This document shows, piece by piece, positions 15,869-55,525 of a stretch of DNA of 64,000 nucleotides. The position numbers were made by a program, and so were the translations under genes. How positions within the stretch are numbered: position 1 is the first letter of the stretch; the number at the start of each line of letters is the position of its first letter. Source of the DNA: Escherichia coli (GTDB lineage Bacteria; Pseudomonadota; Gammaproteobacteria; Enterobacterales; Enterobacteriaceae); NCBI RefSeq assembly GCF_044324785.1, contig NZ_CP172127.1; one strand, written 5' to 3'. Below the pieces are notes generated by a model. That model saw nothing but the letters and a program-made list of their open reading frames with translations. It was not told the origin of the DNA and made no database searches.

Positions 15869-15892
15869 AGAGGCATTTTGGCGGAAGATCAC
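15869..15892. repeat. Distal attachment-site direct repeat: 24-bp copy of the selC 3' end (tggcggaagatcacaggagtcgaa)
   Basis: Exact 24-bp identity with 57010..57033, which is the 3' end of tRNA-Sec. Confidence 0.8.
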
Positions 15893-16037
15893 AGGAGTCG
15901 AATATGAATGTTAATGTTTTGATTTTAAATGATTAATCTGTGTTGGATAAATGAGTAACCCCCATAAGAACCCCCAAATAACTTTGTGTAAGGGAATGAA
16001 GCTAAAATACACAATCGAATCAATTCTTAGAGCTTTA

Positions 16038-32210: not shown

Positions 32211-32389
32211 AGCGTTACATTGGCAGCTAAATAAATGCGATGATGCTCGCAAAATCCTTGCCGATCAACCTACCAGATGCGGCGATTCTACGTGGATCGC
32301 GATTTAATTATCACTGCCAGTTATTTGTTCGAAAAGACCATAGCTTTCTATTTATACTCAAGCTTCGCGCCATCAGATAGCTATGTCTT

Positions 32390-33028
32390 ATGAAAAAACT
32401 ACCGGACCATTTATCCAGGGAATGCATCATCGCCGCCATTCGCGCTTACGATGCAGGCGTTGCGCATCAGTTTAAAAGCGCGCGTCTGTATGAGATCGAG
32501 TTTGAGGGGCGTCGGTATCCTTCAAAAGCCATCGTCGGGTTAGCGGCCACGCTTGCGACGGGAACGGAATTTACCCCGGCGGATTTCAGCGGGGGGATTA
32601 AATCAAAATGCGTGCGTCTGTTACTGGAGCAAGGATTTACGATCGCGTCGCAGGGCGCTGGCGATGACGAGGTTGCGCTTTTCCCCGATGAGGGGCAGAC
32701 GACCATGGAGTACGTGGAAGGGGCGGCGTTGCAGGTGGTGGTCAATCGCTATGAGCGCGACCGTCAGGCTCGTCAGGCGGCGCTTCGCCTGCATGGCTGC
32801 CAGTGTCAGGTATGCGGTCTGGATATGGCCAGCCGCTATGGCGATATCGGCCAGGGCTTTATCCATATCCACCATCTCATCCCGCTGGCCGGGATAAAGC
32901 AGGACTACCGCCTGAACCCTGAAACCGATCTGATCCCGGTATGTCCCAACTGCCATGCGATGCTGCACCGGCGAGATCCGCCGTTTACCCCCGAAGAGCT
33001 GAAGGCCCGGCTGCGCCCCACAGACTGA
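32390..33028 (+). CDS. McrA-like HNH endonuclease with a distinct N-terminal domain
   Basis: C-terminus CQCQVCGLDMASRYGDIGQGFIHIHHLIPLAGIKQDYRLNPETDLIPVCPNCHAMLHRRD parallels the E. coli McrA HNH motif (C.NCG…HHVIPLS…CPNCH..LH). Confidence 0.65.
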   Translation: MKKLPDHLSRECIIAAIRAYDAGVAHQFKSARLYEIEFEGRRYPSKAIVGLAATLATGTEFTPADFSGGIKSKCVRLLLEQGFTIASQGAGDDEVALFPDEGQTTMEYVEGAALQVVVNRYERDRQARQAALRLHGCQCQVCGLDMASRYGDIGQGFIHIHHLIPLAGIKQDYRLNPETDLIPVCPNCHAMLHRRDPPFTPEELKARLRPTD

Positions 33029-33110: not shown

Positions 33111-34790
33111 TTACTTATCCCGCGTCTCGCCAGCCTCCCAGCTGTAGCTGCCATCGGCCGCTAAGCTATCGCCCAGCTCCTGATACTCGAACTGATAAAA
33201 CTCAGCCTGGGTGCCGTACCCGGCGTAGTCTACCGCCGCCAGGCCGACGAACGCCCCGGTAAAGAACCCGCCGTAGCTCTGCAACACATAGTCATCGGAC
33301 AGCACCGCGGCATCCAGCTGGACCGGGATCTCGGTGAACGTCACGCCATCGAAGCTGTATTCATAGCTGTAGGTCTGCTTGCGGACTTTGGTCCGGAACC
33401 AGACGTATTCCACGCCGTCCGGCACCTTGATGGCGTTATCTTTCAGGTACGACGTGTATTTCCCGCGGTTATTTTCGCCGACTTCGATGACCTTGCCGTT
33501 AATTTCATTCCAGGTCAGGAAGACGAAGCTCCAGTGGCGGTCGTTATAGTAATTCGTTAACCCGGCCATCTGCTGGTAGCTGAAGGGCTCGAATTTCACC
33601 TTCACCGCGGCGTCAAAATAGAAGGCCTGCCAGCGGCGGGCAATCAGCGACAGATCATGCGTATTGGCTAACGAGCCCTGGCCGATTAAGGTTAATTTGC
33701 CGTTACCGGTGGTGCCCATTTTGGCCGTAAACGGCACCCGCAGGGTATTCCAGTTCGGGTCGAGGGCTGGCGACGTAAAGTCATCCTGCTGGCTATTATC
33801 GCTGGCGCTTTCGGTGAAGATGGCGTCTTTCGGTCCTTCGACGAAGGTTTTCCCGCCGTGACCGCCTTCAATACGCGGCCAGCCCTCGTCATCCCAGTAC
33901 ACTTTCTGGATCGCGGTTTCCCGGCCGAGGGTTGACCAGCCGCGCGGGTCGTAGATGGATTCCCCCGGGCGATTCCACGGCCGGGCGCAGAGCGAGGCGT
34001 AATACCATTCGCCTTCCGGGGTGGAGACCAGCGCGCCATGGCCCTGTTTCTGGATGTAGCTGTCCGGGGTGTCGACGTTGGTTAAGAACACGTCGCCCGG
34101 CTCGGTTTCAAAGCTGTCGGCCTCGAGGGTTTTCGACCGCGCCACCACCTCCTGGTGGGTAAACACGGTGCCGCCCTGGGCGGCAAACAGGTAGTAGTAG
34201 CCGTTCAGTTTATAGAGGTGCGGCCCCTCGACCAGCGCTACGGCGGTGCCGCGGTAGATGGTGCGCGCGGTTTCCGGCATTAACTTCAGCGTGTTGGTAT
34301 CCAGCTCCGTTAAGGTAATGCCATCGAAGGGGTGATGGTACTCCCGGTGATCCCAGGTTTGCTGGACGATATATTTCCGGCCATCGTCGTCATGGAACAG
34401 CGAGGCGTCAAACCCGACTCCGTTCAGCTTGATCGGGTCGCTCCACGGGCCCCGAATATCCTTCGCGGTGGTCAGGTAGTTGGTCATGTCTTTGAAGGCG
34501 CCTTCGGTGACCTTCACATCGGTATACACCAACCAGAATTGCCCGTCGGCCCAGGAGAGCGCCGGCGCCCAAATGCCGCCGGAGGAGGGGTTGCCCTTCA
34601 TGTCCAGCAGGGTGGTGGTGGAGAGCGGCGAAGGCAGCAGGTTCCAGTTTTTCAGGTCTTTCGACTCATGTAAACGCACGCCCGGAAACCACTCAAACGT
34701 CGAGTTGGCAATATAGTACGTATCCTCGACGCGAATAATACTGGGGTCGGCATTAAAGCCGCGTAATATCGGGTTTTGAATAAGTGACAT
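33111..34790 (-). CDS. xynB: Glycoside hydrolase family 43 beta-xylosidase / alpha-L-arabinofuranosidase
   Basis: 559 aa; N-terminal five-bladed propeller catalytic signature (…GFNADPSIIRVEDTYYIANSTFEWFPGVRLHESKDLKNW…) and C-terminal beta-sandwich typical of XynB-type enzymes. Confidence 0.8.
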   Translation of the reverse strand: MSLIQNPILRGFNADPSIIRVEDTYYIANSTFEWFPGVRLHESKDLKNWNLLPSPLSTTTLLDMKGNPSSGGIWAPALSWADGQFWLVYTDVKVTEGAFKDMTNYLTTAKDIRGPWSDPIKLNGVGFDASLFHDDDGRKYIVQQTWDHREYHHPFDGITLTELDTNTLKLMPETARTIYRGTAVALVEGPHLYKLNGYYYLFAAQGGTVFTHQEVVARSKTLEADSFETEPGDVFLTNVDTPDSYIQKQGHGALVSTPEGEWYYASLCARPWNRPGESIYDPRGWSTLGRETAIQKVYWDDEGWPRIEGGHGGKTFVEGPKDAIFTESASDNSQQDDFTSPALDPNWNTLRVPFTAKMGTTGNGKLTLIGQGSLANTHDLSLIARRWQAFYFDAAVKVKFEPFSYQQMAGLTNYYNDRHWSFVFLTWNEINGKVIEVGENNRGKYTSYLKDNAIKVPDGVEYVWFRTKVRKQTYSYEYSFDGVTFTEIPVQLDAAVLSDDYVLQSYGGFFTGAFVGLAAVDYAGYGTQAEFYQFEYQELGDSLAADGSYSWEAGETRDK

Positions 34791-34848
34791 TTCATTACAC
34801 CTTTTAAAATGGAAAGTGACGAATCGGTCTGATTTATAATTTTTTTAA

Positions 34849-36342
34849 CTACACGCGGATCTCATCCAGCTGACGGTTGATGTCGGTAACATGTTTATCG
34901 GAGATCGGATAAACCTGGATAATCACCATCGAAATAGCGGCCAGCGCGATCGGGATCCACACCGCGGTCATAATGATCCCGTCGATGGCGCTGGCGCTCT
35001 GCACGGCGCCGCTTTCATTAAAGCCATACACCGCCAGCAGCCACAGCGGGATCGCGCCGCCGATGGTGAAGCCGATCTTGAAGAAGAGTCCCATAATGGC
35101 ATTGATAATGGCGGCATTGCGTTTGCCAGATTTTAATTCGCCGTACGCGATGACTTCCGGTACCAGCGCCCACATAAAGCCGGTGGCGGAGGTTAAGCCC
35201 CACTGTTTAATAAAGGTGGCGATGTAGGCCAGCCACAGGGCGTCGTGCATCCCTTCGCGGGACCAGACGTAGGTCAGCAGTTCGCCGACGATAAACATGG
35301 CGAGGAACAGATGGAAGAAGCCTTTTTTACCAAAGATTTTTTTCAGTTTCGGCCAGAAAATCGGGAAGGCGATGCCGGGAATAGACGCGACGAGACCCAC
35401 CGCGCCCATCCATTCGGAGTGGCCGACGACGTACTGGTTGAAGAAGCCGTTAACAGTGTTCATGAAGAACATGAAGGTAAAGGCCAGCATAAAGAACATG
35501 CCCAGAATAACCAGCGGGCGGTTATGTCGGAGCTCGTGGAAAAGGTCGGTGGTTTTGACGTTGGCGGTCTGCTCGGCGGTCGCGACAACGCGTTCTTTGG
35601 TGAATTTATAACAGATAAACAGAGCCACCGCGCCGATGATCATATAGATGGCGTACACGCCAAACCAGGCGTAATTTGCCGACGGATCGGTATAATTCCC
35701 CAGATTCAGCTCAAGGCCAAAAAAGCCGGTGTCTTTCAGGCTGCGATCTTTCGGCGCCGCCATCTGCACAAACATCGGGAACAGGGTATAGACCAGCAGG
35801 TTGGCGCTGTTGGCCAGCATCATGCGGGTACTGGTCAGTTTATCGATCGATTCCGGGTCGCGGGTCAGCGACGCATTCAGCGAGCCATAGGGAATATTGA
35901 CTAAGGAATAAACCAGGTCCAGCGCCAGATAAATAATAAAGGCGAAAGCCACCGAACCTTTCACTCCGGGGATGGGCGCGAACAGTAATGCCGAGAGGAT
36001 CACCAGCGGCACGCCGGCTCGTAACAGCCACGGACGATATTTCCCTGCCTTCGAGGTTCGTTTATCCACGTAGGTGCCGACCATCGGATCCCAAAACACG
36101 TTAATTATGCGGACAAAAAGAAAAATAAAGCCTGCCGTTGCCGTGCTGATGGTATTTACCGTCAGCATATGCAAAGCCAGAAAACCCCCAATTGTGCCGA
36201 AAACCAGGTTTTGCGCAAAGTCGCCCATGCCATAACCAATTCGTTCTCCACGGGTTAATTTATGATATTCATCATGCCGACTGTGCATTATGTTTTTACT
36301 CATTCTAAGCAGACTCCGGTTTGTTTTGTGTAGGTGAAACAC
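34849..36342 (-). CDS. Glycoside-pentoside-hexuronide (GPH) family cation symporter, probable xyloside transporter
   Basis: Up to 497 aa (start uncertain); motif GERIGYGMGDFAQN and 12-TM profile; operon with the GH43 gene. Confidence 0.8.
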   Translation of the reverse strand: MFHLHKTNRSLLRMSKNIMHSRHDEYHKLTRGERIGYGMGDFAQNLVFGTIGGFLALHMLTVNTISTATAGFIFLFVRIINVFWDPMVGTYVDKRTSKAGKYRPWLLRAGVPLVILSALLFAPIPGVKGSVAFAFIIYLALDLVYSLVNIPYGSLNASLTRDPESIDKLTSTRMMLANSANLLVYTLFPMFVQMAAPKDRSLKDTGFFGLELNLGNYTDPSANYAWFGVYAIYMIIGAVALFICYKFTKERVVATAEQTANVKTTDLFHELRHNRPLVILGMFFMLAFTFMFFMNTVNGFFNQYVVGHSEWMGAVGLVASIPGIAFPIFWPKLKKIFGKKGFFHLFLAMFIVGELLTYVWSREGMHDALWLAYIATFIKQWGLTSATGFMWALVPEVIAYGELKSGKRNAAIINAIMGLFFKIGFTIGGAIPLWLLAVYGFNESGAVQSASAIDGIIMTAVWIPIALAAISMVIIQVYPISDKHVTDINRQLDEIRV

Positions 36343-36714
36343 TTTCTGACACAGTTGACATGGAAGAATCTATTACGTTTTTAAATTAAGTAATTATGTT
36401 TTTTTACTTCTGTGATCCTCGAAGCAAAGACCTGTATCACTTGCGTTGAGCCGCCATCCGCCGCTAATTTTTTGGCAGACAGGCAATGTGACAAAACCGG
36501 CATTTTAATTCGCTATGCCCACCTGAATTCCCCAGGAAGTGTACTCTATACGCGCGCGAAGCGAGATATTTAAAATAGTTTTATTTGCGAGATGGCTCAC
36601 ATTTGAGCATTTTCTCAATCGCTGAGTGAAATAACGTAATTGAGCAACCGACGATGAGAATACACGATGTGTCACAGTTGTTAATTTTCGGCTTCCTCAA
36701 TTTCGGAGTTCATC

Positions 36715-38034
<1,320 letters not shown>

Positions 38035-38364
38035 ATTTGGCTGACATGCCCCTGCGGGGGCATGTATTCCGCCGTGTGCCCGCTGCCGGGAAATAGCGTT
38101 TATTTGTTCGTGTTGTATTTATGCTGTCTGTGCCGAAAGGCTATCTGTTTGACTGTCTATAGAGGAACAATCCGCCGCGCGGATGGTTCTGCCATTGTGC
38201 CACCTTTTTAATATCAGTGAGGGAGGGCGAGTAGCGATAATTGTGTAATGCCTCTGTGACCGTACAAAATAAAAAATAACTTGTTCTGATGATAGCGACA
38301 TATTCTGTCAGCTCAGAATAGGCTGGTTATTGTCTGAATAAAATTAACCTATATTGAGAAACTC

Positions 38365-39747
38365 ATGACAATGATAAAAAAACTTCCATTAACCATGGCG
38401 GTTATCGCCGCGTTTTTTCCGCTTACCTCTGTAATGGCGCAAGAATTTACTCAGGAACAGATCGACGCCATCGTCGCCAAAGCCGTTGATAAAGCGCTGG
38501 CCGACCGCCAGGCGAAAATTGACGCCGCGGCCGACAAAAAGGTCGACGTCATTACCAACCCACAGACCACCGCCGCCTCGCCGGATATGGCCATTCCGTT
38601 CGGCCTCAAGTTCAGCGGCTATGCCCGCTATGGCGCCCATTTCCAGACCGGCGACCAGAAATATGTCGGCGTCGACGGCTCCTATAACGGCGCCTCGGCG
38701 ATCGGCCGTCTGGGCAACGAAAGCAACGGCGGCGAATTCCAGATCAGCAAAGCCTTCAAAAGCGCGCAGGGGGCTATCTGGGATCTCAACGTCATGTTCG
38801 ACCACTGGAGCGACGAGGTTAACCTGAAGAAGGCCTACGTCGGCGTCACCAACGTGCTGGAATCCAATCCCAACGCCTATATCTGGGCCGGCCGCGACTT
38901 CCACCAGCGTCCGCAACAGGGGATCAACGACTACTTCTGGATGAACCACGACGGCCAGGGCGCCGGGGTGAAGAACTTTGATATCGGCGGCGTGCAGTTC
39001 GACGTGGCGGCGGTGTCGCAGGTGAAATCCTGTAGCCCGGAAGTGATGGCCGACGAGACCAACCCGTCGCGTATCACCTGTACCGGCAGCTCCGACACCG
39101 GGGACAACGGCCACTACGCGCTGACCACCAAAACCCACAACATCAAGGCCGGGCCGATCGACGTCGAGGTGTACGCCAACTACGGCTTTGACTCGAAGGC
39201 GGTGGACAGCGACGCGCGTCTCGAAGCCTGGCAGGGCGGCCTGGTGCTGAGCCACACCAACGACAGCGGGGTGAACAAGGTGATCCTGCGCTACTCCGAT
39301 AACTCGGATAACAGCGTCTACAACAAAACCGACGACCTGACCACGGTCTACGCTAGCTTCGAGGGCAGCCATAAGTTCACCCAGCAGGCGCAGGTGGAAT
39401 ATCTGCTGGCCTTCCACGACTACGACAACGGCAAAGATAATACCGACAACCGCAAAAACTACGGTGCCATCGTGCGGCCGATGTACTTCTGGAACGACGT
39501 GCACTCCACCTGGCTGGAAGCGGGCTACCAGCGCGTGGACTACGACCAGGGCGGGGATAACCACGGCTGGAAGCTGACGCTGTCGCAGAACATCGCCATC
39601 GGCATGGGGCCGGAGTTCCGTCCGATGCTGCGCTTCTACGTGACCGGCGGTCAGGTGGACAACGAGCATACCGCTAAGGTCAACGGCACCAAAGACCAGC
39701 AGCTGGATTCGCTGAACGTCGGCGGGATGTTTGAGGCGTGGTTCTGA
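38365..39747 (+). CDS. Carbohydrate-selective outer-membrane porin (LamB/ScrY family) with N-terminal coiled-coil extension
   Basis: 460 aa; signal peptide, ScrY-like N-terminal helical extension, C-terminal aromatic end (…MFEAWF). Confidence 0.65.
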   Translation: MTMIKKLPLTMAVIAAFFPLTSVMAQEFTQEQIDAIVAKAVDKALADRQAKIDAAADKKVDVITNPQTTAASPDMAIPFGLKFSGYARYGAHFQTGDQKYVGVDGSYNGASAIGRLGNESNGGEFQISKAFKSAQGAIWDLNVMFDHWSDEVNLKKAYVGVTNVLESNPNAYIWAGRDFHQRPQQGINDYFWMNHDGQGAGVKNFDIGGVQFDVAAVSQVKSCSPEVMADETNPSRITCTGSSDTGDNGHYALTTKTHNIKAGPIDVEVYANYGFDSKAVDSDARLEAWQGGLVLSHTNDSGVNKVILRYSDNSDNSVYNKTDDLTTVYASFEGSHKFTQQAQVEYLLAFHDYDNGKDNTDNRKNYGAIVRPMYFWNDVHSTWLEAGYQRVDYDQGGDNHGWKLTLSQNIAIGMGPEFRPMLRFYVTGGQVDNEHTAKVNGTKDQQLDSLNVGGMFEAWF

Positions 39748-47982: not shown

Positions 47983-49962
47983 ATGGGCAGACCGTTAAAA
48001 ACTTTATTCAAACGTGAGCATAGTGAAGAAATCAGTAACCCGAGCGATAACCGCGCGTTTTCGCAGGTGGCGGAAGTTTATTTGTCACGCCGCCGTCTGT
48101 TACAGGCCGGCACGGTCGCCGGTGCCGCGGCAGCGTTCCCATTTCTGCTGAAACAGGAAAACGCGCTGGCGAAAGTGGTCTCCAAAGCAAGCGGTAACCT
48201 CGGCAAAGCGACGACGCTCGGTTTCACCAGCCTGCCGGTTTCCACGGAAGATACCGTTATCGTGCCGGAAGGATACATCGCGAAGCCCTTCTACAAATGG
48301 GGCGACGCCACCGGGATTGCCGGAAATCTGCCGGTTTTTAAAACCGACGGTAGCAACACCACGGAAGAACAGGCGGCGCAGGCCGGGATGCACCACGACG
48401 GCATGGCGTGGTTTAGCCTGCCGCAGGGCGGGAACAGCTCCGATCACGGCCTGCTTGCCATAAACCATGAATACATCGATAACGGTCTACTGTTTAAAGA
48501 TGGCGATGCCAACTGGAGCGCCGATAAAGCTCTTAAAGGCCAGAACGCGATGGGCGTGTCGGTCATTGAAGTAAAAAAAGTGCCCCTGGGCTGGGAAGTG
48601 GTGCGCCCGTCATCGTTCGCACGCCGCATCACCGTTAACACGCCGATGAAAATCACCGGTCCGGCGCTGCATAACCCACTGATGCAAACAGTTGACGATC
48701 CGAAAGGCGAAATCATTCTCGGCACCATGCAGAACTGTGCCAACGGATTTACGCCGTGGGGCACCTATCTGACGTGTGAAGAGAACTGGTCCGATATTTT
48801 CGTAAAAAAAGCAGAGATGAACCCGCTGGAAAAACGTTACGGTATCAGCGGGAGCGACGACTCTTACCGCTGGAACGAAGTGGATAAAAGGTTCAGCGTC
48901 GACGCCACGCCGAACGAGCCGAACCGCTTCGGCTGGGTGGTGGAAATCGATCCATACGATCCGCATTCAGTGCCGCGCAAGCACACCGCGCTTGGTCGCA
49001 TCAAACACGAAGGCGCGGCGGTGACAATTGCCCCGGATAACCGCGTTGTGGTCTATATGGGCGATGACCAGAAATTCGAATACATATATAAATTTGTCTC
49101 GGAAGGAAAATTCAACCCGCAGGATCGCAAAGCCAACATGCACCTGCTGGAAAAAGGCACTCTGTACGTGGCGAAATTTAACGACGACGGCAAAGGCGAG
49201 TGGCTACCGCTGGTGTTCGGACAAAATGGGCTCGACGCCAGTAAAGGGTTTGAAAACCAGGGCGACCTGTTGATTAAAACCCGTCTGGCGGCAGACGCCG
49301 TGGGGGCCACTAAAATGGACCGCCCGGAGTGGATTGCGGTCGATCCATATCACGCCGGCAGCGTTTACTGCACGCTCACCAACAACAGCGATCGCGGTAC
49401 GGAAGGAAAAGCGCCAGTGGATGCGGCCAACCCGCGCGCCAAAAACGTTTACGGCCACATCATTCACTGGCTGGAGCATAACGGCGACCCGACCGCGCTG
49501 CAGTTTGCCTGGGATATTCTTGTGATGGGCGGTCGCACCGATACGGACAAACCGGAAACCAAAGGCAGCATGAAGGGTGCGGAATTCGGCAGCGCCGATG
49601 GCCTGAGCTTCGATCACCGCGGCGTGCTATGGATCCAGACCGACGTGTCGTCATCAACCATCAATAGTAAAGATTACAAAGGCATGGGCAACAACCAGAT
49701 GGTGGCGACGATCCCCGGTACCAATGAGTTCCGCCGCTTCCTGACCGGCCCGCGCGGCTGCGAAATCACCGGCATCGCGTTCACTCCGGATAATCGGACG
49801 CTGTTTATTAACATCCAGCACCCTGGCGAGCCAAGCGAAGGGCTTAGCGATCCGCAGCATCCGACGGCAGTATCAAGCTGGCCTGACGGCGATAAGGCTG
49901 GTCGTCCGCGCTCCTCAACTGTCGTTATCGTAAAAGCCGACGGCGGCATAATCGGCACCTGA
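47983..49962 (+). CDS. phoX: PhoX-family alkaline phosphatase (Tat-secreted)
   Basis: 659 aa; twin-arginine signal SRRRLLQAGTVAGAAAA; PhoX/DUF839 architecture. Confidence 0.8.
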   Translation: MGRPLKTLFKREHSEEISNPSDNRAFSQVAEVYLSRRRLLQAGTVAGAAAAFPFLLKQENALAKVVSKASGNLGKATTLGFTSLPVSTEDTVIVPEGYIAKPFYKWGDATGIAGNLPVFKTDGSNTTEEQAAQAGMHHDGMAWFSLPQGGNSSDHGLLAINHEYIDNGLLFKDGDANWSADKALKGQNAMGVSVIEVKKVPLGWEVVRPSSFARRITVNTPMKITGPALHNPLMQTVDDPKGEIILGTMQNCANGFTPWGTYLTCEENWSDIFVKKAEMNPLEKRYGISGSDDSYRWNEVDKRFSVDATPNEPNRFGWVVEIDPYDPHSVPRKHTALGRIKHEGAAVTIAPDNRVVVYMGDDQKFEYIYKFVSEGKFNPQDRKANMHLLEKGTLYVAKFNDDGKGEWLPLVFGQNGLDASKGFENQGDLLIKTRLAADAVGATKMDRPEWIAVDPYHAGSVYCTLTNNSDRGTEGKAPVDAANPRAKNVYGHIIHWLEHNGDPTALQFAWDILVMGGRTDTDKPETKGSMKGAEFGSADGLSFDHRGVLWIQTDVSSSTINSKDYKGMGNNQMVATIPGTNEFRRFLTGPRGCEITGIAFTPDNRTLFINIQHPGEPSEGLSDPQHPTAVSSWPDGDKAGRPRSSTVVIVKADGGIIGT

Positions 49963-50011: not shown

Positions 50012-50091
50012 ATGGTAAAGTCCTGTCAGTCCGCGCGCTGGCTTCCTTCAACGCTTTGTCGTAATTTTTGTCAGTCTGCTCGTAGTCTGGA

Positions 50092-50455
50092 ATGCCCGGA
50101 ATTCCTCAACGCTATGCCACTGTTCAGGCGCGGTGTGATGAGAGGGGCGTCGCTGGGTTATGCCTTTCCGGGCACGATTCTGGCGATTGGTTTTCTGACT
50201 CCCTAAATGACCGCTGGCTGTCGGAACTACTGGATTACAGGGGGTTACCTTTAATGTCTGTCGGTGTCCTGTTGGTGATTTGCTGTACGATGCGATTTCA
50301 GGCAATAGCCATCGGCGCACTTGATGTCCGGCTGGGACGTATACCAGAGTCACTGGAACAAGCCTCACGTCTGCTGGGAGAAAATGGTACAGGAACTTTT
50401 GTTCGGGTTCACTTTCCTGTGTTGCTCTGGTGAGCAGTGCCCTGCTGGTTTTCAC
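50092..50455 (+). pseudogene. Fragments of an ABC-transporter permease (EAA-loop region), frameshifted
   Basis: …RIPESLEQASRLLGENGTGTFVRVHFPVLL… and …GASLGYAFPGTILAIGF… in different frames without a credible start. Confidence 0.5.
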
Positions 50456-50801
50456 TGATGCGATGAAAGAACTGCCAGTAACACTTCTTTATTCCGAATC
50501 GCTCTTCCGGACGATTAAGTATTGTTCATGGTGGCCGGAGAATGGTTTTCGAACCATAGATGAAGCCAGAAGTTGGTTAAGCAAGTTCACGCAATGGTAC
50601 AACCTGGAACACAAGCACAGCGGTATTAAGTATGTTACTCCGGATGAACGCCATCGCGGAATTGATGCACAAATACTGGAAGCCAGAAAAAAAGTTTATC
50701 GCGAAGCTCGCAAGCGTCATCCTGAGCGCTGGAGCAAACAGTTGCGTGACTGGGAACTCATTCAGGCAGTTTATCTGAATCCAGAAAAAGAAGCGACATA
50801 A
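50430..50801 (+). pseudogene. C-terminal fragment of an integrase-core (rve-type) transposase
   Basis: …WYNLEHKHSGIKYVTPDERHRG… resembles transposase C-termini; the reading frame continues from the permease fragment with no start. Confidence 0.45.
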
Positions 50802-51311
50802 CGTAATTTTATTACATCAGGCGACAACTACCTTGAAAAACGCCGGAAATAACTGACTCTTTACCCGCTGCCATGCAGTGGGCTTTTTTATATCCCCCCT
50901 TCACAAACTCTGCTCACTGGTTATACCGGTTCACCTTTCCGGCTTGTAACCGCATGCACTCTGGACTGCCAGTCAGCTCATGTATGTCTCTTCCTTAATT
51001 GTGTTCATGAACAGGTGACACCTTATCTCCTGACAGAATAAACAAATTTTATTAATTCTGCTCTTCGCCAGCCCACTGCTACCATCTGTCGCGACGGGGC
51101 ATGGCTGCCTGCATGGCATGCATTTGTTGTGTCTGTGCTGACTGAACACGATAAAATTTTCCGGTTAATGAAGATCGATATCATCGATCGATTCGATCGA
51201 AATTATTCTATTGAGAATATCTGTTACCCGCTTTTAAAATATTCAAAGTACTATTTGCAGCAACGGAACAATAGCGGAGGTAATTGAAATAAAAAGATTT
51301 TTGCTGTTTCA

Positions 51312-52028
51312 GTGGTAGCCGCAGCCTGTGTATTTGCAGCAAATGCAGGTGCTGAGGAAGGTAAAAGCGGTTTTTATCTGACCGGTAAAGCCGGTGCCTC
51401 TGTGATGTCACTTTCAGACCAGCGTTTCCTGTCAGGAGATGAGGAAGAAACGTCAAAGTATAAAGGCGGCGATGACCATGATACGGTATTCAGTGGTGGT
51501 ATCGCGGCTGGTTATGATTTTTATCCGCAGTTCAGTATTCCGGTTCGTACAGAACTGGAGTTTTACGCTCGTGGAAAAGCTGATTCGAAGTATAACGTAG
51601 ATAAAGACAGTTGGTCAGGTGGTTACTGGCGTGATGACCTGAAGAATGAGGTGTCAGTCAACACACTAATGCTGAATGCGTACTATGACTTCCGGAATGA
51701 CAGCGCATTCACACCATGGATATCTGCAGGGATTGGCTACGCCAGAATTCACCAGAAAACAACTGGTATCAGTACCTGGGATTATGAGTACGGAAGCAGT
51801 GGTCGCGAATCGTTGTCACGTTCAGGCTCTGCTGACAACTTCGCATGGAGCCTTGGCGCGGGTGTCCGCTATGACGTAACCCCGGACATCGCTCTGGACC
51901 TCAGCTATCGCTATCTTGATGCAGGTGACAGCAGTGTGAGTTACAAGGACGAGTGGGGCGATAAATATAAGTCAGAAGTTGATGTTAAAAGTCATGACAT
52001 CATGCTTGGTATGACTTATAACTTCTGA
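51312..52028 (+). CDS. Outer-membrane beta-barrel protein (opacity/Ail/OmpX-like superfamily); start uncertain
   Basis: Alternating amphipathic strands and C-terminal …LGMTYNF; a better signal peptide (KKIFAVSVVAAACVFAANA) is encoded in frame upstream but lacks an ATG. Confidence 0.55.
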   Translation: MVAAACVFAANAGAEEGKSGFYLTGKAGASVMSLSDQRFLSGDEEETSKYKGGDDHDTVFSGGIAAGYDFYPQFSIPVRTELEFYARGKADSKYNVDKDSWSGGYWRDDLKNEVSVNTLMLNAYYDFRNDSAFTPWISAGIGYARIHQKTTGISTWDYEYGSSGRESLSRSGSADNFAWSLGAGVRYDVTPDIALDLSYRYLDAGDSSVSYKDEWGDKYKSEVDVKSHDIMLGMTYNF

Positions 52029-52208
52029 CGACACTGCTCCTGAACGATAATTGCGTATATTCTGTAATTAAGATAATTGCATATCTTCTGCAATTAAACA
52101 GAAATACCCTGCAGTCTATTACTGCAGGGTTGTCTGTTATCTGTTTTACAGATAATTCTGATTTTTATTATCTTGTTCTCTTCATAATAATGTTGTCGAT
52201 ATACTCCG

Positions 52209-53711
52209 ATGAATATCAGAAAACTGTTTTGTCCGGGAAACACCCCCCGGATTTTATTGTTTTTATTCTTTTTTGTTGTTTCTGTAATAACCACAATTGC
52301 ATGCGGATACACTGAGAAGAATGCCACCGGGAATGTGTTGCTGCTGTTCCTTCTTCTGCTCCTTGCACACAGAAATACCCTCACATCCATTACAGCGCTG
52401 TTATTTCTGTTCTGTTGTGCACTGTATGCGCCTGCCGGTATGACGTACGGTAAAATCAACAACAGTTTTATTGTCGCGTTGCTGCAGACCACAACTGATG
52501 AGGCAGCGGAGTTTACCGGGATGATTCCTGTTTATCATTTTCTGGTCAGTGCCGCGATTCAGGTATTCATGGTGATTTTCTGGCGAACACACCGCCGTGG
52601 TCACCGTAACTGGCTGGCACTGCTGCTGTTCGTATTATGCTCAGTAAACAGCTGGCCGTTGCGGATGGTTAAAGGAACTGTTGTGGGGACAACTGACACA
52701 TTGCGTGAAATGCAACATTATAAACAACTGAGTCAGCACGGGGCTGACAACTGGAAAATCCTGCCGGGAACACCGTTATATGACACAATTGTTATTGTCA
52801 CTGGTGAGAGTGTGCGCAGGGATTATATGTCGGTATATGGCTATCCCGTGCCAACCACGCCGTGGCTGAATACAGCTCCCGGTTTATTTATTGACGGCTA
52901 TACATCGGCAGCAGCCAGTACCGTACCTTCCCTGAGCCGGACACTGATTTATGACTATGAGCAGAACCCTGACTCCGGCAACAACGTGGTGGCGCTGGCA
53001 GCAAAAGCAGGATACAGCACATGGTGGATATCCAATCAGGGAAAGCTGGGGGAGCATGATACACGCATCTCTGTTATTGCTTCTGATGCGGAGCATACCG
53101 TTTTCCTCAAGAAAGGCAGCTTTGCTTCCCGTAAAACGGATGACATGTTGTTGTTACAGGAAACAGAACGTGCACTGGCGGATAAATCCTCTCCGAAGGT
53201 GATTTTTCTGCACATGATGGGGTCTCATCCGAACCCGTGTGACCGGCTTCACTCCTGGCCGAATCATTACCTGGAGCAGTATCCCCGAAAGGTTGCCTGT
53301 TACCTCGCCAGCATCAGTAAACTGGATAACTTTCTCTGTCAGCTTGATGGTATCCTTCGCCGGCATTCCCGTCATTTCGCCATGCTTTACTTTTCTGACC
53401 ATGGTCTGTCGGTCAGCGACAGTGCTAATCCTGTTCATCATGATGGCCATATACAAGGAGGCTACAGCGTTCCCCTGATTATTACCGCCAGTGACATCAC
53501 GTCTCATCAGTCCGTCAGCAGAAAAATCAGTGCCCGTCATTTCGCAGGTATTTTTCAGTGGCTGACCGGCATTCGTACTGAAAATATACCGCCATTCAAT
53601 CCGCTGACAGACGAAGATAATGAACCCATTATGGTTTTTAACGGAGACAAGAATGTACCGACAGACAGCCTTGAGTCACAGCCTCTGATTCTTCCGGGCA
53701 AGGGAAAATAA
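52209..53711 (+). CDS. Inner-membrane sulfatase-fold phosphoethanolamine-transferase-family protein (EptA/OpgE/YhbX superfamily)
   Basis: 500 aa; N-terminal TM helices, then …TIVIVTGESVRRDYMSVYGY… and …VIFLHMMGSHPNPCDRL… resembling the PEtN-transferase HxxGSH motif region. Confidence 0.6.
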   Translation: MNIRKLFCPGNTPRILLFLFFFVVSVITTIACGYTEKNATGNVLLLFLLLLLAHRNTLTSITALLFLFCCALYAPAGMTYGKINNSFIVALLQTTTDEAAEFTGMIPVYHFLVSAAIQVFMVIFWRTHRRGHRNWLALLLFVLCSVNSWPLRMVKGTVVGTTDTLREMQHYKQLSQHGADNWKILPGTPLYDTIVIVTGESVRRDYMSVYGYPVPTTPWLNTAPGLFIDGYTSAAASTVPSLSRTLIYDYEQNPDSGNNVVALAAKAGYSTWWISNQGKLGEHDTRISVIASDAEHTVFLKKGSFASRKTDDMLLLQETERALADKSSPKVIFLHMMGSHPNPCDRLHSWPNHYLEQYPRKVACYLASISKLDNFLCQLDGILRRHSRHFAMLYFSDHGLSVSDSANPVHHDGHIQGGYSVPLIITASDITSHQSVSRKISARHFAGIFQWLTGIRTENIPPFNPLTDEDNEPIMVFNGDKNVPTDSLESQPLILPGKGK

Positions 53712-54070
53712 GCGTAATGTTCATCACCAGGTTATGTACGATGAGTTTTCCACTGTTTATAGCAATTATCTTGCTAATAACCAGACAGGAGTAACCAGAC
53801 CAACCGAAAACACCGGGGAGGTGATTACCCGCTGGCAGAGGAAATCCGGTTTTTTTTGATGTCAGCCATAACGTGTTTGACAATAAAGCATTATGAAAGG
53901 GTGTTAATGAGTCCATGGGATAATTCATAAAAATAATTTACTGTGTTGTCCTTTTCAAAAGAAATATTCAGAAGATAACCCCTGGCTGACAACCAGGGAA
54001 AGGGGACATTAACAGTATTATTATTGGTGGATAAATTATTACTTGTGTGCAGGATACACTAATGCAATAT

Positions 54071-55114
54071 CTACTGATACTGTATGCCAGAATGTTTCCT
54101 GCCTGCTGCTGAAAACGGCAATATCCAGGGCCAGACATATTCACCATTCATATTTCTGCATTTCTGTACAATTTTCTCAGAAAGCGTCTCATCAATTCTT
54201 TCACGCAACTTCTCCTGCTGTCTTAAAATACTTTCGTATATTTCGAAATCATCTTCCTGCATCAGCATTTCGGCGCATTTAATGATTTCTGCCCGTTCAT
54301 GCAGCACAGAGGAATGGTTATAGAGCCAGTTTACAAACAGCAATGCTTCCGGATATTGTCCCCATAATGGTGAGTATGTTGTATAATAATCTTCGGCAGT
54401 ATCCGGCCCTGCAGAATAGTTATGCCATACAGCAAGAGGAAATGGATGCAGATTTCCGCACAGCATTTCCGCGATGTAAGTATTTGCCGCAAATCCGCGA
54501 CGAAATGCAGTTGCAGCTTTTACCAGTTCCCCATTAAGAAAATGCAGAAGACCAAGTTCATACCAGTAAGGTGAAAATTCATCAGCATGTTTTTTCAGTA
54601 CACTGAAGGCTCGCTCATGATCACCTGTTCGTAACAGTTCTGAACCCAACAACCAGCGGGCACCCTGATTATCTTCAGGATTGTATGCCAGTATTTTATC
54701 AGTAAGCATAACCGCATCCTGATGACGCTGTAAGTGCACATTTGCGAGAATTGCTGCATAAAGCGCGCGCAGATAAGGCCGGTTTTCGGGATGCATCCAG
54801 ATGATTTCACCACTGAAACTTTCCGGGATGAGACGATTACCGGCCGCCAGTCCTTTAAGCGCGGCGTTCAGAGCCTTACGCGGGGCATTCTGCTCCAGAA
54901 ATGCATATGCCAGATGAGCGTGTATATCAATAAAGTCAGGCTCCCGTTGAGCAAGATGCCTGAGTTTGTTGATGTAACTCGTCTCGCTGATTTCATCAGT
55001 GTCGTATGCATCAAGCACTTCTTCAAACTCCCCCAGTAATGGGCCAAACCAGGTATCCGGAAATACGAAATAACCCTTGTTATCGTGCACTTCAAAGCAT
55101 AATCTATCGTTCAT
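54071..55114 (-). CDS. Hypothetical alpha-helical (possibly TPR-like) protein adjacent to the integrase
   Basis: 347 aa; no recognisable catalytic motif. Confidence 0.5.
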   Translation of the reverse strand: MNDRLCFEVHDNKGYFVFPDTWFGPLLGEFEEVLDAYDTDEISETSYINKLRHLAQREPDFIDIHAHLAYAFLEQNAPRKALNAALKGLAAGNRLIPESFSGEIIWMHPENRPYLRALYAAILANVHLQRHQDAVMLTDKILAYNPEDNQGARWLLGSELLRTGDHERAFSVLKKHADEFSPYWYELGLLHFLNGELVKAATAFRRGFAANTYIAEMLCGNLHPFPLAVWHNYSAGPDTAEDYYTTYSPLWGQYPEALLFVNWLYNHSSVLHERAEIIKCAEMLMQEDDFEIYESILRQQEKLRERIDETLSEKIVQKCRNMNGEYVWPWILPFSAAGRKHSGIQYQ

Positions 55115-55525
55115 TTTCTGAGCCTGTAAAACATGTGGTGATATAGTCTGAGAGCATAAAAGTTGAGATTCTGTGTATCAAGTCCTGTCTTGGCACCGAA
55201 TGAATATTGCTTACGAAGCCCCTTCATGCTTTCCTTGAGAACAATAATTTTATCTTTATGTGAATCTCATTTTTTATAATGATGTCAGATGATTGAAATG
55301 CTAAATTATATCTGAATCAACTTTTCCTTTGCTAAAGGTATCGAAATAACTGCAAGATTGTATTTTGTAATTGCCAATTTAAAAATGTCAATTTGTTTTT
55401 AATTATGTTTTTGTAATAAGTTTGAAGACACAAAAAAATAATATAATAACAAAAATCCTCCAGCCTTGTAGGCCAGAGGATAAAATACTTAATTGAGGAA
55501 AACATCAGGGAAAAGTATTTCTGAC

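What the first reader, a model, noticed from the sequence alone, without database searches (positions are those of the whole stretch)
51312..53711. Island-borne envelope pair: outer-membrane barrel with a doubtful start, and a PEtN-transferase-family enzyme
A horizontally acquired phosphoethanolamine-transferase-family protein could modify lipid A, LPS core or glucans, with possible effects on polymyxin susceptibility or phage receptors. It does not resemble MCR-1 at its N-terminus. For the barrel protein, the best signal peptide is encoded in frame upstream of the called GTG but without an ATG, so the start codon may be mutated or non-canonical.
Basis: partly seen in the sequence, partly recalled or inferred. 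Interest (0 to 1): 0.4.

Follow-up and report, generated by a model that had tools for sequence, protein, structure and literature searches.

The report
Start-damaged Hek adhesin plus OpgE-like transferase
The two genes are a well-known pair at the integrase end of E. coli tRNA-linked pathogenicity islands: a Hek/Hra1-type adhesin gene that has lost its start codon in this lineage, and an intact but uncharacterised phosphoethanolamine transferase most similar to the periplasmic-glucan enzyme OpgE, not to colistin-resistance enzymes.

Summary
The window is E. coli ES1/ST38 DNA. Both genes lie in a 41-kb island at selC, in a conserved module: tRNA, P4-type integrase, SisA/ShiA-like TPR protein, transferase, Hra-family barrel.

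**Barrel protein.** It is a Hek/Hra1 allele, 64% identical to Tia and in the same 90% cluster as proteins named 'adhesin/virulence factor Hek'. Intact alleles read GGAG-N8-ATG AAA AAG. This allele is one base shorter and reads ATAAAAAG, so no start codon remains in frame behind the Shine-Dalgarno site. The annotated GTG has no Shine-Dalgarno site and leaves a 14-residue, uncharged signal peptide. Seven other assemblies carry the identical lesion, so it is not a sequencing error. The gene is probably silent or weakly expressed.

**Transferase.** It is intact: five-helix membrane domain, Thr238 nucleophile and zinc ligands all present. Its closest K-12 paralogue is OpgE (31% identity, 236 bits); EptA (44 bits) and MCR are far. 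K-12's yjgX pseudogene is a decayed copy. A full-length copy is in 27% of complete genomes. It is already noted in the literature as 'sulfatase', 'YjgX' or 'putative opgE'. Its acceptor is unknown, and polymyxin resistance is unlikely.

The parts
51312..52028 (+). Hek/Hra1-type outer-membrane adhesin ORF as annotated (GTG start, 238 aa). The body is intact and ends in ...MTYNF.
   Evidence: It is 98.4% identical to the intact ECCNB12-2 allele and 64% to Tia. It falls in the same 90% cluster as proteins named 'adhesin/virulence factor Hek'.
51288..51311 (+). In-frame remnant of the ancestral signal-peptide N-terminus (N-K-K-I-F-A-V-S). It contains no ATG, GTG or TTG. ATT at 51297 is the only near-cognate codon.
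51289..51291 (+). ATA at the position of the ancestral ATG, out of frame with the ORF. Intact alleles read ATGAAAAAG here; this allele reads ATAAAAAG, one base shorter.
   Evidence: Alignments. The sequence is identical in eight assemblies.
51276..51280 (+). Shine-Dalgarno GGAGG that served the ancestral ATG. The spacer is 8 nt to the ATA, 16 nt to ATT 51297 and 31 nt to GTG 51312.
   Evidence: duplex energy -10.8 kcal/mol here, against -0.9 upstream of the GTG.
51211..51240 (+). Sigma-70-like promoter candidate for the adhesin gene (TTGAGA-18-TAAAAT, 10 of 12 matches).
   Evidence: This is a consensus match only.
52046..52097 (+). Two tandem 26-bp repeats, the second containing the palindrome TAATTGCA-N7-TGCAATTA, just after the adhesin stop codon. 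Possibly a regulator-binding site.
   Evidence: Conserved in E. coli alleles; the Tia locus has a single copy.
52106..52130 (+). Hairpin with a 10-bp perfect stem between the two genes. It resembles a terminator but has a weak T tract.
52209..53711 (+). Intact YjgX-type (OpgE-sister) phosphoethanolamine-transferase-family enzyme, 500 aa. It has five transmembrane helices and a periplasmic alkaline-phosphatase-fold domain.
53638..53928 (-). Small ORF overlapping the 3' end of the transferase gene. PGAP marks 53701-53928 as an incomplete hypothetical pseudogene. No family match.
54071..55114 (-). TPR protein of 347 aa, the SisA/ShiA-type island protein.
   Evidence: PMC13340028 identifies the 1,044-bp TPR gene in this module as sisA.
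55526..56710 (-). P4-type tyrosine integrase.
57010..57104 (-). tRNA-Sec (selC), the island's attachment site. Its 3'-end repeat lies at 57018-57033.
15887..15902 (-). Distal direct repeat of the selC 3' end, marking the far boundary of the ~41-kb island.
50430..50801 (+). IS3-family integrase-core remnant fused to an ABC-permease fragment, immediately upstream of the adhesin promoter region.

Best explanation
The finding covers two adjacent cargo genes of the conserved integrase-proximal module of E. coli tRNA-associated islands. The module order is tRNA, P4-type integrase, SisA/ShiA-like TPR protein, PEtN-transferase-family gene, Hra-family barrel adhesin. Here it sits in a 41-kb selC island of an ST38-type strain.

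(1) The barrel gene is a Hek/Hra1 allele whose translation start has been destroyed. Shown: intact alleles read GGAG-N8-ATG AAA AAG; this lineage is one base shorter and reads ATAAAAAG, so the Shine-Dalgarno site now faces an out-of-frame ATA and no canonical start remains in frame upstream of the signal-peptide core. Inferred: the annotated GTG (no Shine-Dalgarno site, 14-residue uncharged pre-sequence) or the ATT at 51297 could at best give weak expression and poor export. The adhesin is therefore probably silent or strongly reduced in this strain, although the barrel-coding body is still intact.

(2) The enzyme is an intact inner-membrane phosphoethanolamine transferase of the YjgX clade, with a complete catalytic set. 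Shown: the fold, the catalytic residues, and that OpgE is its nearest K-12 paralogue. Inferred: it takes phosphoethanolamine from phosphatidylethanolamine through a Thr238 phospho-enzyme intermediate and places it on a periplasmic or outer-membrane glycan (an OPG-like glucan or an LPS core sugar) rather than on lipid A. It is therefore not expected to confer polymyxin resistance.

A terminator-like hairpin separates the two genes. Published work shows that Hra-family adhesins function when expressed alone in K-12, so the pairing probably reflects shared island history rather than obligatory cooperation.
For: **Identity and context**
- The window is 100% identical to E. coli ES1; module annotation is.
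- selC, the integrase and the direct repeats are.
- The same module flanks Tia, a Salmonella homologue pair and the pheU copy in strain 317.
- Literature on the module: LAA ORF4 'sulfatase' next to hes (PMC5539235); TPR=SisA, PEtN transferase, barrel=Hes (PMC13340028); 'YjgX or YhbX' at all pheU/pheV/selC sites examined (PMC6174562); 'putative opgE' beside integrases and pap (PMC8946752).

**Barrel**
- OMP_b-brl at E=7e-21.
- 62% identical in the search to a cluster NCBI names 'invasion outer membrane protein Tia'; 63.9% to the Tia of locus L013.
- Its 90% cluster includes proteins named 'adhesin/virulence factor Hek'.

**Start lesion**
- Shine-Dalgarno energies and spacings, and signal-peptide lengths (22, 19 and 14 residues), are.
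- The exact 5' allele occurs in only 2 of 5426 complete genomes. The same 238-aa product is on 55 contigs.
- Eight assemblies (ES1 and seven others) show the identical upstream sequence.

**Enzyme**
- Sulfatase domain at E=7.6e-36.
- OpgE 31% identity, 236 bits, over residues 20-478. YhbX 102 bits, EptC 97, EptB 55, EptA 44.
- A neighbour-joining tree places it as sister to the OpgE clade.
- E200, T238, H335, H340, D397 and H398 are invariant across 25 sequences that include EptA, EptB and EptC. H411 is conserved in at least 90%.
- The AF2 model has pLDDT 88 and pTM 0.78, with five long N-terminal helices.
- The best PDB folds are EcEptC, full-length MCR-1 and NmEptA.
Against: - No expression data exist for either gene in this strain.
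- The four deletion-bearing alleles differ from each other at 4-7 codons. Synonymous changes (23) outnumber non-synonymous ones (12), and all keep the 238-codon frame open. This could mean residual expression and selection, although recombination of the 5' segment onto older variation explains it equally well.
- The hairpin between the genes has a poor T tract, so co-transcription is not excluded.
- 31% identity to OpgE does not fix the acceptor.
- A 36%-identical Acinetobacter homologue sits among LOS-type glycosyltransferase genes. This points to an LPS/LOS core sugar rather than OPGs.
- The pair is syntenic from E. coli to Salmonella at about 55% identity, which is also compatible with functional coupling.
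Confidence: 0.8

Rival explanations
1. The barrel gene is still functional. Translation starts at a non-canonical or downstream codon (ATT 51297 or GTG 51312, as PGAP annotates), and the shortened hydrophobic pre-sequence is sufficient for Sec export, so the strain still displays the adhesin, perhaps at a lower level.
For: - The ORF body is intact and identical on 55 contigs.
- The deletion-bearing alleles show more synonymous than non-synonymous differences and no secondary stops.
- The hydrophobic core VAAACVFAA and the ANA-G cleavage motif are retained.
- PGAP calls the gene as a CDS, not as a pseudogene.
- In VTB97379v the out-of-frame ATG mini-ORF ends at a TAG overlapping the GTG, an arrangement that could allow termination-reinitiation.
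Against: - There is no Shine-Dalgarno site before the GTG (-0.9 kcal/mol), and the spacing to the ATT is 14-16 nt.
- Both Lys residues of the signal peptide's N-region are lost.
- In this window the upstream ATG that could drive coupling has itself become ATA.
- ATT and ATA initiate very poorly in E. coli (general knowledge, not tested here).
Confidence: 0.25
2. The transferase is a lipid A or Kdo modifier (EptA/EptB/MCR-like) that lowers polymyxin susceptibility.
For: - It has the same superfamily, fold and catalytic residues as MCR-1 and EptA.
- NCBI names some homologues 'lipid A phosphoethanolamine transferase', but this is an automatic name.
Against: - It scores 58.6 and 38.5 bits against EptA equivalog cutoffs of 561 and 660, and 19-33 bits against MCR cutoffs of 1225-1250.
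- It scores 44 bits to K-12 EptA and 55 to EptB, against 236 to OpgE.
- The tree places EptA and EptB furthest away.
- A full-length copy is present in about 27% of complete E. coli genomes, and no association of this gene with colistin resistance turned up in the papers read here. This last point is an absence of evidence only.
Confidence: 0.07
3. The barrel and the transferase are a functional unit. The enzyme decorates an envelope glycan, or the barrel itself, in a way that the Hra-family adhesin needs or that compensates for its presence. This would explain why the two genes travel together.
For: - 1053 of the 1104 genomes carrying the barrel gene have it next to the enzyme gene.
- The synteny is kept when the barrel is swapped for Tia: barrel 64% identical, enzyme 95% identical.
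- The synteny is also kept in Salmonella at 54% and 57%.
- A second, diverged pair sits at pheU of the same strain: a Hra-family OMP with a YhbX-like transferase.
- In K-12 the core opgE lies beside ompX, another 8-strand PF13505 barrel.
Against: - Hes and Hra1 expressed alone in E. coli HB101 give haemagglutination, autoaggregation, biofilm and adhesion (PMC5539235). Whether HB101 has a working YjgX-type enzyme was not checked; the K-12 strains examined carry only the yjgX pseudogene.
- About 390 genomes carry the enzyme gene at full length without a closely similar barrel gene.
- Providencia barrel homologues are not linked to any transferase.
- More distant enzyme homologues (Erwinia, Pantoea, Aquitalea, Acinetobacter) lack an adjacent barrel.
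- A hairpin and a promoter-like region separate the two genes.
- In this lineage the barrel start is lost while the enzyme stays intact.
Confidence: 0.12
4. The missing ATG is a sequencing or assembly artefact, or one state of a phase-variable homopolymer switch.
For: The lesion lies in or next to a short A run (A4/A5), a sequence type prone to slippage and to long-read errors.
Against: - The 45 nt upstream are identical in eight assemblies (ES1 and seven others), including short-read Logan assemblies, an ENA metagenome and NCBI drafts.
- The deletion-bearing alleles share linked SNPs (GGAGGTAATT, AAGATT), so they are related by descent.
- No intact allele with that 5' haplotype appeared among 256 matching genomes.
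- A run of 4-5 A is too short for efficient phase variation (general knowledge).
Confidence: 0.03

Closest known systems
Hek / Hra1 (heat-resistant agglutinin 1), with Hes, Hra2 and Tia: the Hra family of E. coli outer-membrane adhesins/invasins
   Same: - It is a ~246-aa barrel protein of the same family (PF13505).
- It is 97-98% identical to intact E. coli alleles.
- It is in the same 90% cluster as proteins named Hek and 64% identical to Tia.
- It has the same island position next to the PEtN-transferase, TPR and integrase genes as Hes in LAA and as Tia.
   Different: This allele has lost its ATG and the N-region of its signal peptide through a 1-nt loss at the start codon/A run. It is probably not made, or made poorly. 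Its adhesin activity was not tested here.
OpgE (YbiP), the E. coli phosphoethanolamine transferase for osmoregulated periplasmic glucans (PMC3818809)
   Same: - It is the nearest K-12 paralogue: 31% identity over almost the full length, 236 bits.
- The two proteins are similar in size (500 vs 527 aa).
- Both have an N-terminal membrane domain followed by a periplasmic sulfatase-fold domain.
- The two clades are sisters in the tree.
   Different: - It is a separate clade, not an orthologue. These strains presumably also have core opgE (not checked in ES1).
- It is island-borne next to an integrase.
- Its acceptor is unknown. One 36% homologue lies in an Acinetobacter LOS-type glycosyltransferase locus.
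yjgX (b4575), a K-12 pseudogene in the island beside leuX/intB
   Same: It is about 90.5% identical in DNA over 78% of the gene. It occupies the same position next to a P4-type integrase and a tRNA gene.
   Different: The K-12 copy is truncated at the N-terminus, frameshifted and has an internal stop. The window copy is full-length with all catalytic residues.
EptC/CptA, EptA and MCR-1 (LPS core and lipid A PEtN transferases)
   Same: It shares their fold and catalytic residues. EcEptC is the best solved-structure match, by sequence (5zzu, E=8e-18) and by fold (6a82, E=5e-18).
   Different: It falls far below every curated family cutoff and scores only 44-97 bits in direct comparison. There is no evidence for a lipid A or Hep-I-phosphate acceptor.
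LAA module I, the SHI-2 5' end and selC/pheU/pheV islands of LEE-negative STEC and ExPEC
   Same: The order is the same: integrase, sisA/shiA, 1503-bp 'sulfatase'/PEtN transferase, Hra-family gene.
   Different: The cargo beyond the module differs. Here it includes PhoX, a xylose/GH43 carbohydrate block, a phosphorothioate-sensing restriction enzyme and a CP4-type backbone.

Membership tests
Hra family (Hek/Hra1/Hes/Hra2/Tia) outer-membrane adhesins | High sequence identity to named members over the whole mature protein | tested here: met
   64% identical to Tia. Same 90%-identity cluster as 'adhesin/virulence factor Hek'. 97-98% identical to intact E. coli alleles.
Hra family (Hek/Hra1/Hes/Hra2/Tia) outer-membrane adhesins | Small beta-barrel OMP domain with a C-terminal aromatic residue | tested here: met
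   PF13505 at E=7e-21 over residues 9-246. The protein ends ...MTYNF.
Hra family (Hek/Hra1/Hes/Hra2/Tia) outer-membrane adhesins | Canonical start codon and a complete Sec signal peptide (MKK/MNK N-region, hydrophobic core, AxA site) | tested here: not met
   There is no in-frame ATG, GTG or TTG between the stop at 51285 and GTG 51312. The N-region lysines cannot be included in any product.
Hra family (Hek/Hra1/Hes/Hra2/Tia) outer-membrane adhesins | Haemagglutination, autoaggregation, adhesion or invasion activity | not testable with these tools
   These are known only for family members expressed in the laboratory (PMC5539235).
Phosphoethanolamine transferases of the alkaline-phosphatase superfamily (EptA/MCR/EptC/OpgE type) | Periplasmic sulfatase-fold catalytic domain | tested here: met
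   PF00884 at E=7.6e-36. The AF2 model matches EcEptC, MCR-1 and NmEptA at probability 1.00.
Phosphoethanolamine transferases of the alkaline-phosphatase superfamily (EptA/MCR/EptC/OpgE type) | N-terminal five-helix membrane domain | tested here: met
   AF2 helices 12-31, 39-53, 57-80, 108-127 and 135-145, with two short bridging helices. EptA_B_N scores 24.7 bits against a 22.3 cutoff. Full-length alignment to 9nww and 5fgn.
Phosphoethanolamine transferases of the alkaline-phosphatase superfamily (EptA/MCR/EptC/OpgE type) | Thr nucleophile and metal-binding Glu/Asp/His set | tested here: met
   E200, T238, H335, H340, D397 and H398 are invariant, and H411 is at least 90% conserved, in a 25-sequence alignment that includes EptA, EptB and EptC. 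T238 aligns with the corresponding Thr of EcEptC.
Phosphoethanolamine transferases of the alkaline-phosphatase superfamily (EptA/MCR/EptC/OpgE type) | Transfer of PEtN from phosphatidylethanolamine to an acceptor | not testable with these tools
   This requires biochemistry or mass spectrometry.
EptA / MCR lipid A PEtN transferases | Score above the curated NCBIfam equivalog/exception cutoffs | tested here: not met
   58.6 vs 561 and 38.5 vs 660 for EptA; 19-33 vs 1225-1250 for the MCR families. 44 bits to K-12 EptA.
CptA/EptC heptose-I-phosphate PEtN transferases | Score above the curated NCBIfam cutoff | tested here: not met
   110.4 bits against a cutoff of 404. 97 bits and 23% identity to K-12 EptC.
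OpgE (OPG phosphoethanolamine transferase) | Orthology to E. coli OpgE | tested here: inconclusive
   It is the best K-12 paralogue (31%, 236 bits) and the sister clade. But the two clades are distinct, and no OpgE-specific model appeared among the matches. It is a paralogue, not an orthologue.
P4-type-integrase tRNA genomic island | Integrase next to the 3' end of a tRNA gene, with a direct repeat of the tRNA 3' end at the far boundary | tested here: met
   Core genes yicJ/yicI and setC flank the island.

The most novel reading that the evidence does not exclude
PEtN-transferase-family genes and Hra-family barrels sit side by side repeatedly. A YjgX-type enzyme accompanies Hek/Hra1 or Tia at the selC and selC-like islands examined and in Salmonella. 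A YhbX-type enzyme accompanies a Hra-family OMP at pheU of the same strain. In the K-12 core genome opgE lies beside ompX. This could reflect a real functional partnership, in which island-encoded PEtN decoration of an envelope glycan tunes the display or activity of short-barrel adhesins, or the surface charge around them. If so, the YjgX clade would define a new acceptor specificity in E. coli.
Probability: 0.1. Interest if true: 0.55.

Novelty: already known. Interest (0 to 1): 0.2.

Why it matters
There are two practical points.

- In-silico virulence typing (VirulenceFinder-style 'hra'/'hek' calls, as used for ST38 in PMC10654095) would score this lineage as adhesin-positive. Yet the allele has no usable start codon. 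PGAP also hides the defect by choosing a downstream GTG.
- The island transferase should not be read as a cryptic mcr-like colistin determinant. It is an OpgE-sister enzyme of unknown acceptor.

The enzyme is carried at full length by about a quarter of complete E. coli genomes, and a bloodstream-infection GWAS flagged it because of its linkage to pap. It is a reasonable, though not urgent, target for acceptor identification.

Tried and rejected
- **Sequencing error.** Rejected: the 5' sequence is identical in eight assemblies, ES1 and seven others.
- **Phase variation.** Rejected: the alleles share a linked haplotype, the run is only 4-5 A, and no intact allele with this 5' haplotype was found.
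- **Programmed frameshift from the out-of-frame ATG/ATA.** Rejected. A -1 slip would need tRNA-Lys to re-pair on GAA. A +1 slip on AAAA lands in the wrong frame. In this window the ATG is gone altogether (reasoned).
- **MCR/EptA/EptB/CptA membership.** Rejected: all curated cutoffs are missed by a large margin.
- **Close relative on plasmids.** The nearest plasmid-borne relatives are a 52% paralogue on large E. coli plasmids, ~31-33% homologues on Klebsiella and Citrobacter plasmids, and a 26% cptA-like gene on pO157-type plasmids. A PEtN transferase on one 5.5-kb plasmid is only 25% identical. None is characterised.
- **RNA elements.** Rfam found no RNA family in 50500-57300 except tRNA-Sec. 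One match far below the gathering score (rli40, 23 vs 100 bits) was dismissed.
- **OmpX as a relative of the barrel.** They share only the Pfam family and one 25-residue local match (E=3e-4), too weak to argue for a duplicated ompX-opgE block.
- **Selection test.** Synonymous and non-synonymous codon differences among the deletion-bearing alleles were counted, but there are too few substitutions to decide.
- **Keio yjgX mutant data (PMC4808223).** Uninformative, because K-12 yjgX is a pseudogene.
- **Exact named allele.** I could not obtain reference Hra1 (EAEC 042), Hek (RS218) or Hes (B2F1) sequences, so I did not determine which named allele is closest.


Full report
**What is there**

One runs 51312-52028 (+), starts at GTG and encodes 238 aa. 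The other runs 52209-53711 (+), starts at ATG and encodes 500 aa. The window is 100% identical to the chromosome of E. coli ES1 and to a near-identical record named 'ST38'. RefSeq annotates the same two CDSs there as 'outer membrane protein' and 'phosphoethanolamine transferase'.

Downstream on the minus strand lie three further features:
- a 347-aa TPR protein at 54071-55114;
- a P4-type tyrosine integrase at 55526-56710;
- tRNA-Sec at 57010-57104.

The 16-nt 3' end of selC (TTCGACTCCTGTGATC) occurs at 57018-57033 and again at 15887-15902. This delimits a ~41-kb island between selC and setC. The rest of the island holds a CP4-type backbone, a xylose/GH43 carbohydrate block, a PhoX gene and IS remnants.

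**The barrel protein**

It matches Pfam OMP_b-brl at E=7e-21. Its relatives are almost all from E. coli, and one cluster at 62% identity is named 'invasion outer membrane protein Tia' by NCBI. The window's own 238-aa sequence falls in a 90%-identity cluster whose named members include 'adhesin/virulence factor Hek'. The published Hra family comprises Hra1, Hek, Hes, Hra2 and Tia, with Tia and Hra2 about 65% identical to the Hra1/Hek/Hes group (PMC5539235). That fits the 64% I measured to Tia. The barrel is therefore a Hek/Hra1-type adhesin allele. I could not obtain reference Hra1, Hek or Hes sequences to say which named allele is closest.

**The start codon**

The frame is open from the TGA at 51285-51287 and encodes N-K-K-I-F-A-V-S before the GTG, with no ATG, GTG or TTG.

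Comparison with other genomes explains the defect:
- The closely related selC island of isolate ECCNB12-2 reads GGAGATAATTGAA-ATG-AAA-AAG-GTT, giving MKKVFAVSVVAAACVFAANAGA.
- The pheU copy of strain 317 reads ATG-AAT-AAG, giving MNKVFVV....
- Three genomes (GF60, VTB97379v, LR-33) read ATGAAAAG. They are one A short, so the ATG is out of frame.
- The window reads ATAAAAAG.

The window allele can be described in two ways: as the GF60-type deletion plus a G-to-A change, or as loss of the G of ATG from an intact allele. The four deletion-bearing alleles share linked SNPs (GGAGGTAATT, AAGATT). No intact allele with that 5' haplotype appeared among 256 matching genomes. That favours the first route. 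Either way, the strong Shine-Dalgarno site (GGAGG at 51276-51280, -10.8 kcal/mol) now faces an out-of-frame ATA.

The remaining candidate starts are poor:
- The in-frame ATT at 51297 lies 16 nt after GGAGG (the script, which scores a longer duplex, gives a spacing of 14).
- The annotated GTG has no Shine-Dalgarno site (-0.9 kcal/mol). It would give a 14-residue pre-sequence without either lysine, against 22 residues in the intact form.

The lesion is not an assembly error. The 238-aa product is recorded on 55 contigs. All eight places fetched carry the identical 45 nt upstream. These were ES1 itself, short-read Logan assemblies, an ENA metagenome scaffold and NCBI drafts.

I conclude that the gene is a recently start-disabled allele, probably silent or weakly expressed. 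One caution applies. The four deletion-bearing alleles differ at 4-7 codons, with more synonymous (23) than non-synonymous (12) changes, and none has a secondary stop. Residual expression therefore cannot be excluded. I give that rival about 25%.

The strain is not left without a family member. Its pheU island carries a second Hra-family barrel, 63% identical to the selC one and 67% to Tia, with a normal MKK start.

**The enzyme**

It has a Sulfatase domain (E=7.6e-36) and a marginal EptA_B_N match. Against NCBI's curated models it reaches none of the cutoffs:
- CptA: 110 bits against 404;
- EptA: 58.6 against 561, and 38.5 against 660;
- EptB: 49 against 493;
- MCR families: 19-33 against 1225-1250.

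I fetched the five K-12 paralogues and compared them directly:

| K-12 paralogue | Bits | Notes |
|---|---|---|
| OpgE | 236 | 31% identity over residues 20-478 |
| YhbX | 102 | |
| EptC | 97 | |
| EptB | 55 | |
| EptA | 44 | |

A rough neighbour-joining tree puts the window protein in its own clade, sister to the OpgE clade, with EptA and EptB most distant. That clade contains:
- E. coli proteins at 67-93% identity;
- a Salmonella protein at 57%;
- a plasmid-borne E. coli paralogue at 52%;
- an Erwinia protein at 50%;
- proteins from Pantoea, Aquitalea, Acinetobacter and Snodgrassella at 35-39%.

The catalytic set is complete. E200, T238, H335, H340, D397 and H398 are invariant, and H411 nearly so, across 25 sequences that include EptA, EptB and EptC. 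T238 aligns with the corresponding Thr of EcEptC. An AlphaFold2 model (pLDDT 88, pTM 0.78) shows five long N-terminal helices, two short bridging helices and the periplasmic domain. Its best solved-structure matches are EcEptC, full-length MCR-1 and N. meningitidis EptA.

The protein is thus a bona fide, apparently functional PEtN-transferase-family enzyme. It is not an EptA/MCR, EptB or CptA orthologue. OpgE, the enzyme that puts PEtN on osmoregulated periplasmic glucans (PMC3818809), is the closest characterised relative.

The acceptor remains open. OpgE similarity points to glucans. A 36% Acinetobacter homologue embedded among LOS-type glycosyltransferase and deacetylase genes points to a core sugar. 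Lipid A is the least likely acceptor.

**How common and how known**

| Feature | Complete genomes (of 5426) |
|---|---|
| The pair, ≥80% of the 2.8-kb query covered | 1053 |
| Enzyme gene at ≥80% length | 1447 |
| Enzyme gene, any part | 2731 |
| Barrel gene at ≥80% length | 1104 |

The partial enzyme copies include K-12. A copy 90.5% identical over 78% of the gene lies beside IS2, intB and leuX. MG1655 annotates it as the pseudogene yjgX (b4575). The enzyme is therefore not a core paralogue, but it is one of the commonest island genes in the species.

The module is conserved across different contexts:
- Tia loci show barrel, 500-aa sulfatase-family gene, TPR protein, integrase. The enzyme is 94.8% identical to the window's, while the barrels are only 63.9% identical.
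- A Salmonella island keeps barrel then enzyme at 54% and 57% identity.

The literature already describes it:
- ORF4 'sulfatase' (1503 bp) lies next to hes in the LAA island.
- A survey of pheU/pheV/selC insertions notes that all carried 'YjgX or YhbX'.
- A bloodstream-infection GWAS found 'putative opgE' genes beside integrases and the pap operon.

**Are the two genes a functional pair?**

They are separated by 180 nt. This spacer contains two 26-bp tandem repeats, a perfect 10-bp-stem hairpin and a weak promoter-like site. Hra-family adhesins work when expressed alone in HB101. Distant homologues of either gene are not linked to the other. Here the barrel's start has decayed while the enzyme is intact.

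Against that stands the persistent synteny, including a second pair at pheU built from a different transferase subfamily (YhbX-like, 65% to K-12 YhbX). The core ompX-opgE adjacency in K-12 is also curious. I rate true functional coupling at about 10-12%.

**Verdict**

- The polymyxin angle is weak.
- The pair is a well-known, widely distributed island module.
- What this analysis adds is the exact nature of the start lesion, its reproducibility across assemblies, and the placement of the enzyme next to OpgE rather than EptA/MCR.
- Interest is low.

Noticed in passing
L031 27804-36564 (NZ_CP133856.1 417804-426564, outside the window): The same strain's pheU island repeats the architecture with diverged parts. 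The order is: a Hra-family OMP (245 aa, normal start, 63% identical to the selC copy); a four-gene insertion; a 557-aa YhbX-like PEtN-transferase-family protein (65% to K-12 YhbX, 27% to the window enzyme); the integrase; tRNA-Phe.
   Followed up: partly
L031 28964-33206; the same cassette occurs in L018 6162-10404, and a similar WYL-led cassette in L029 5743-8951: The insertion between the pheU barrel and transferase is a WYL/HTH regulator plus two proteins. The two proteins match the PADLOC candidate defence families PDC-M09A (E=9e-22) and PDC-M40B (E=2e-42). This is a probable anti-phage cassette occupying the barrel-transferase gap.
   Followed up: partly
L031 18032-27347 (outside the window): A complete type I-E CRISPR-Cas locus (cas3, casA-E, cas1, cas2 and an array) lies inside the pheU island of ES1, just upstream of the second Hra-family gene.
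   Followed up: no
L020-L025 (E. coli K-12 MG1655): Several K-12 PEtN-transferase genes lie directly beside tRNA genes: yhbX-leuU, eptB-proK and yjgX-intB-leuX. In addition, opgE lies convergent with ompX, another 8-strand PF13505 barrel. This may be a trace of old island-type acquisitions, or coincidence.
   Followed up: partly
window 52046-52097 and 52106-52130: Two tandem 26-bp repeats (88% identical; the second contains TAATTGCA-N7-TGCAATTA) and a perfect 10-bp-stem hairpin lie in the intergenic region. Both are conserved across E. coli alleles; the Tia locus has one repeat copy. They could form a regulator-binding site and a terminator.
   Followed up: partly
L028 4001-5479 (Acinetobacter sp. 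contig): A 36%-identical homologue of the enzyme lies between an ilvE-like aminotransferase gene and a run of glycosyltransferase and polysaccharide-deacetylase genes. This looks like an LOS outer-core locus and hints at a core-sugar acceptor for this clade.
   Followed up: no
L010 6001-7536; plasmid hits H152-H157: A 52%-identical paralogue (511 aa; cluster of 1955 member sequences) sits on large E. coli plasmids, next to hok/gef repeats, an exclusion-determinant gene and a DotM_C-domain transfer gene. Its function is unknown.
   Followed up: no
window 47983-49962 and 50012-50801: An intact PhoX-family alkaline phosphatase gene (659 aa, Pfam E=6e-166) is followed by a frameshifted ABC-permease fragment fused to an IS3 integrase-core remnant. 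These lie immediately upstream of the adhesin gene.
   Followed up: partly
window 31341-33028: RefSeq annotates an HNH endonuclease gene next to a gene for a 'phosphorothioated DNA-binding restriction endonuclease' inside the island.
   Followed up: no
window 33111-39747: A carbohydrate-utilisation block is present: GH43 glycoside hydrolase, MFS transporter, a second xylA and a carbohydrate porin. It recalls the 49.6-kb avian selC island with carbohydrate-metabolism genes mentioned in PMC6174562.
   Followed up: no
window 1-11416: Beyond the island and the setC, yicL, nlpA and yicS genes lie ETT2-related genes: a SycD-like chaperone, a YopB/SseC-type translocon protein, an IpaD/SipD-type tip protein and eilA. 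The start of the very large inverse autotransporter gene iatC is also there.
   Followed up: no
L004 6949-9128 (E. coli VTB97379v): In one genome carrying the A-deletion adhesin allele, the neighbouring transferase gene is also disrupted, by an IS3-family insertion. In that strain both members of the pair are damaged.
   Followed up: no
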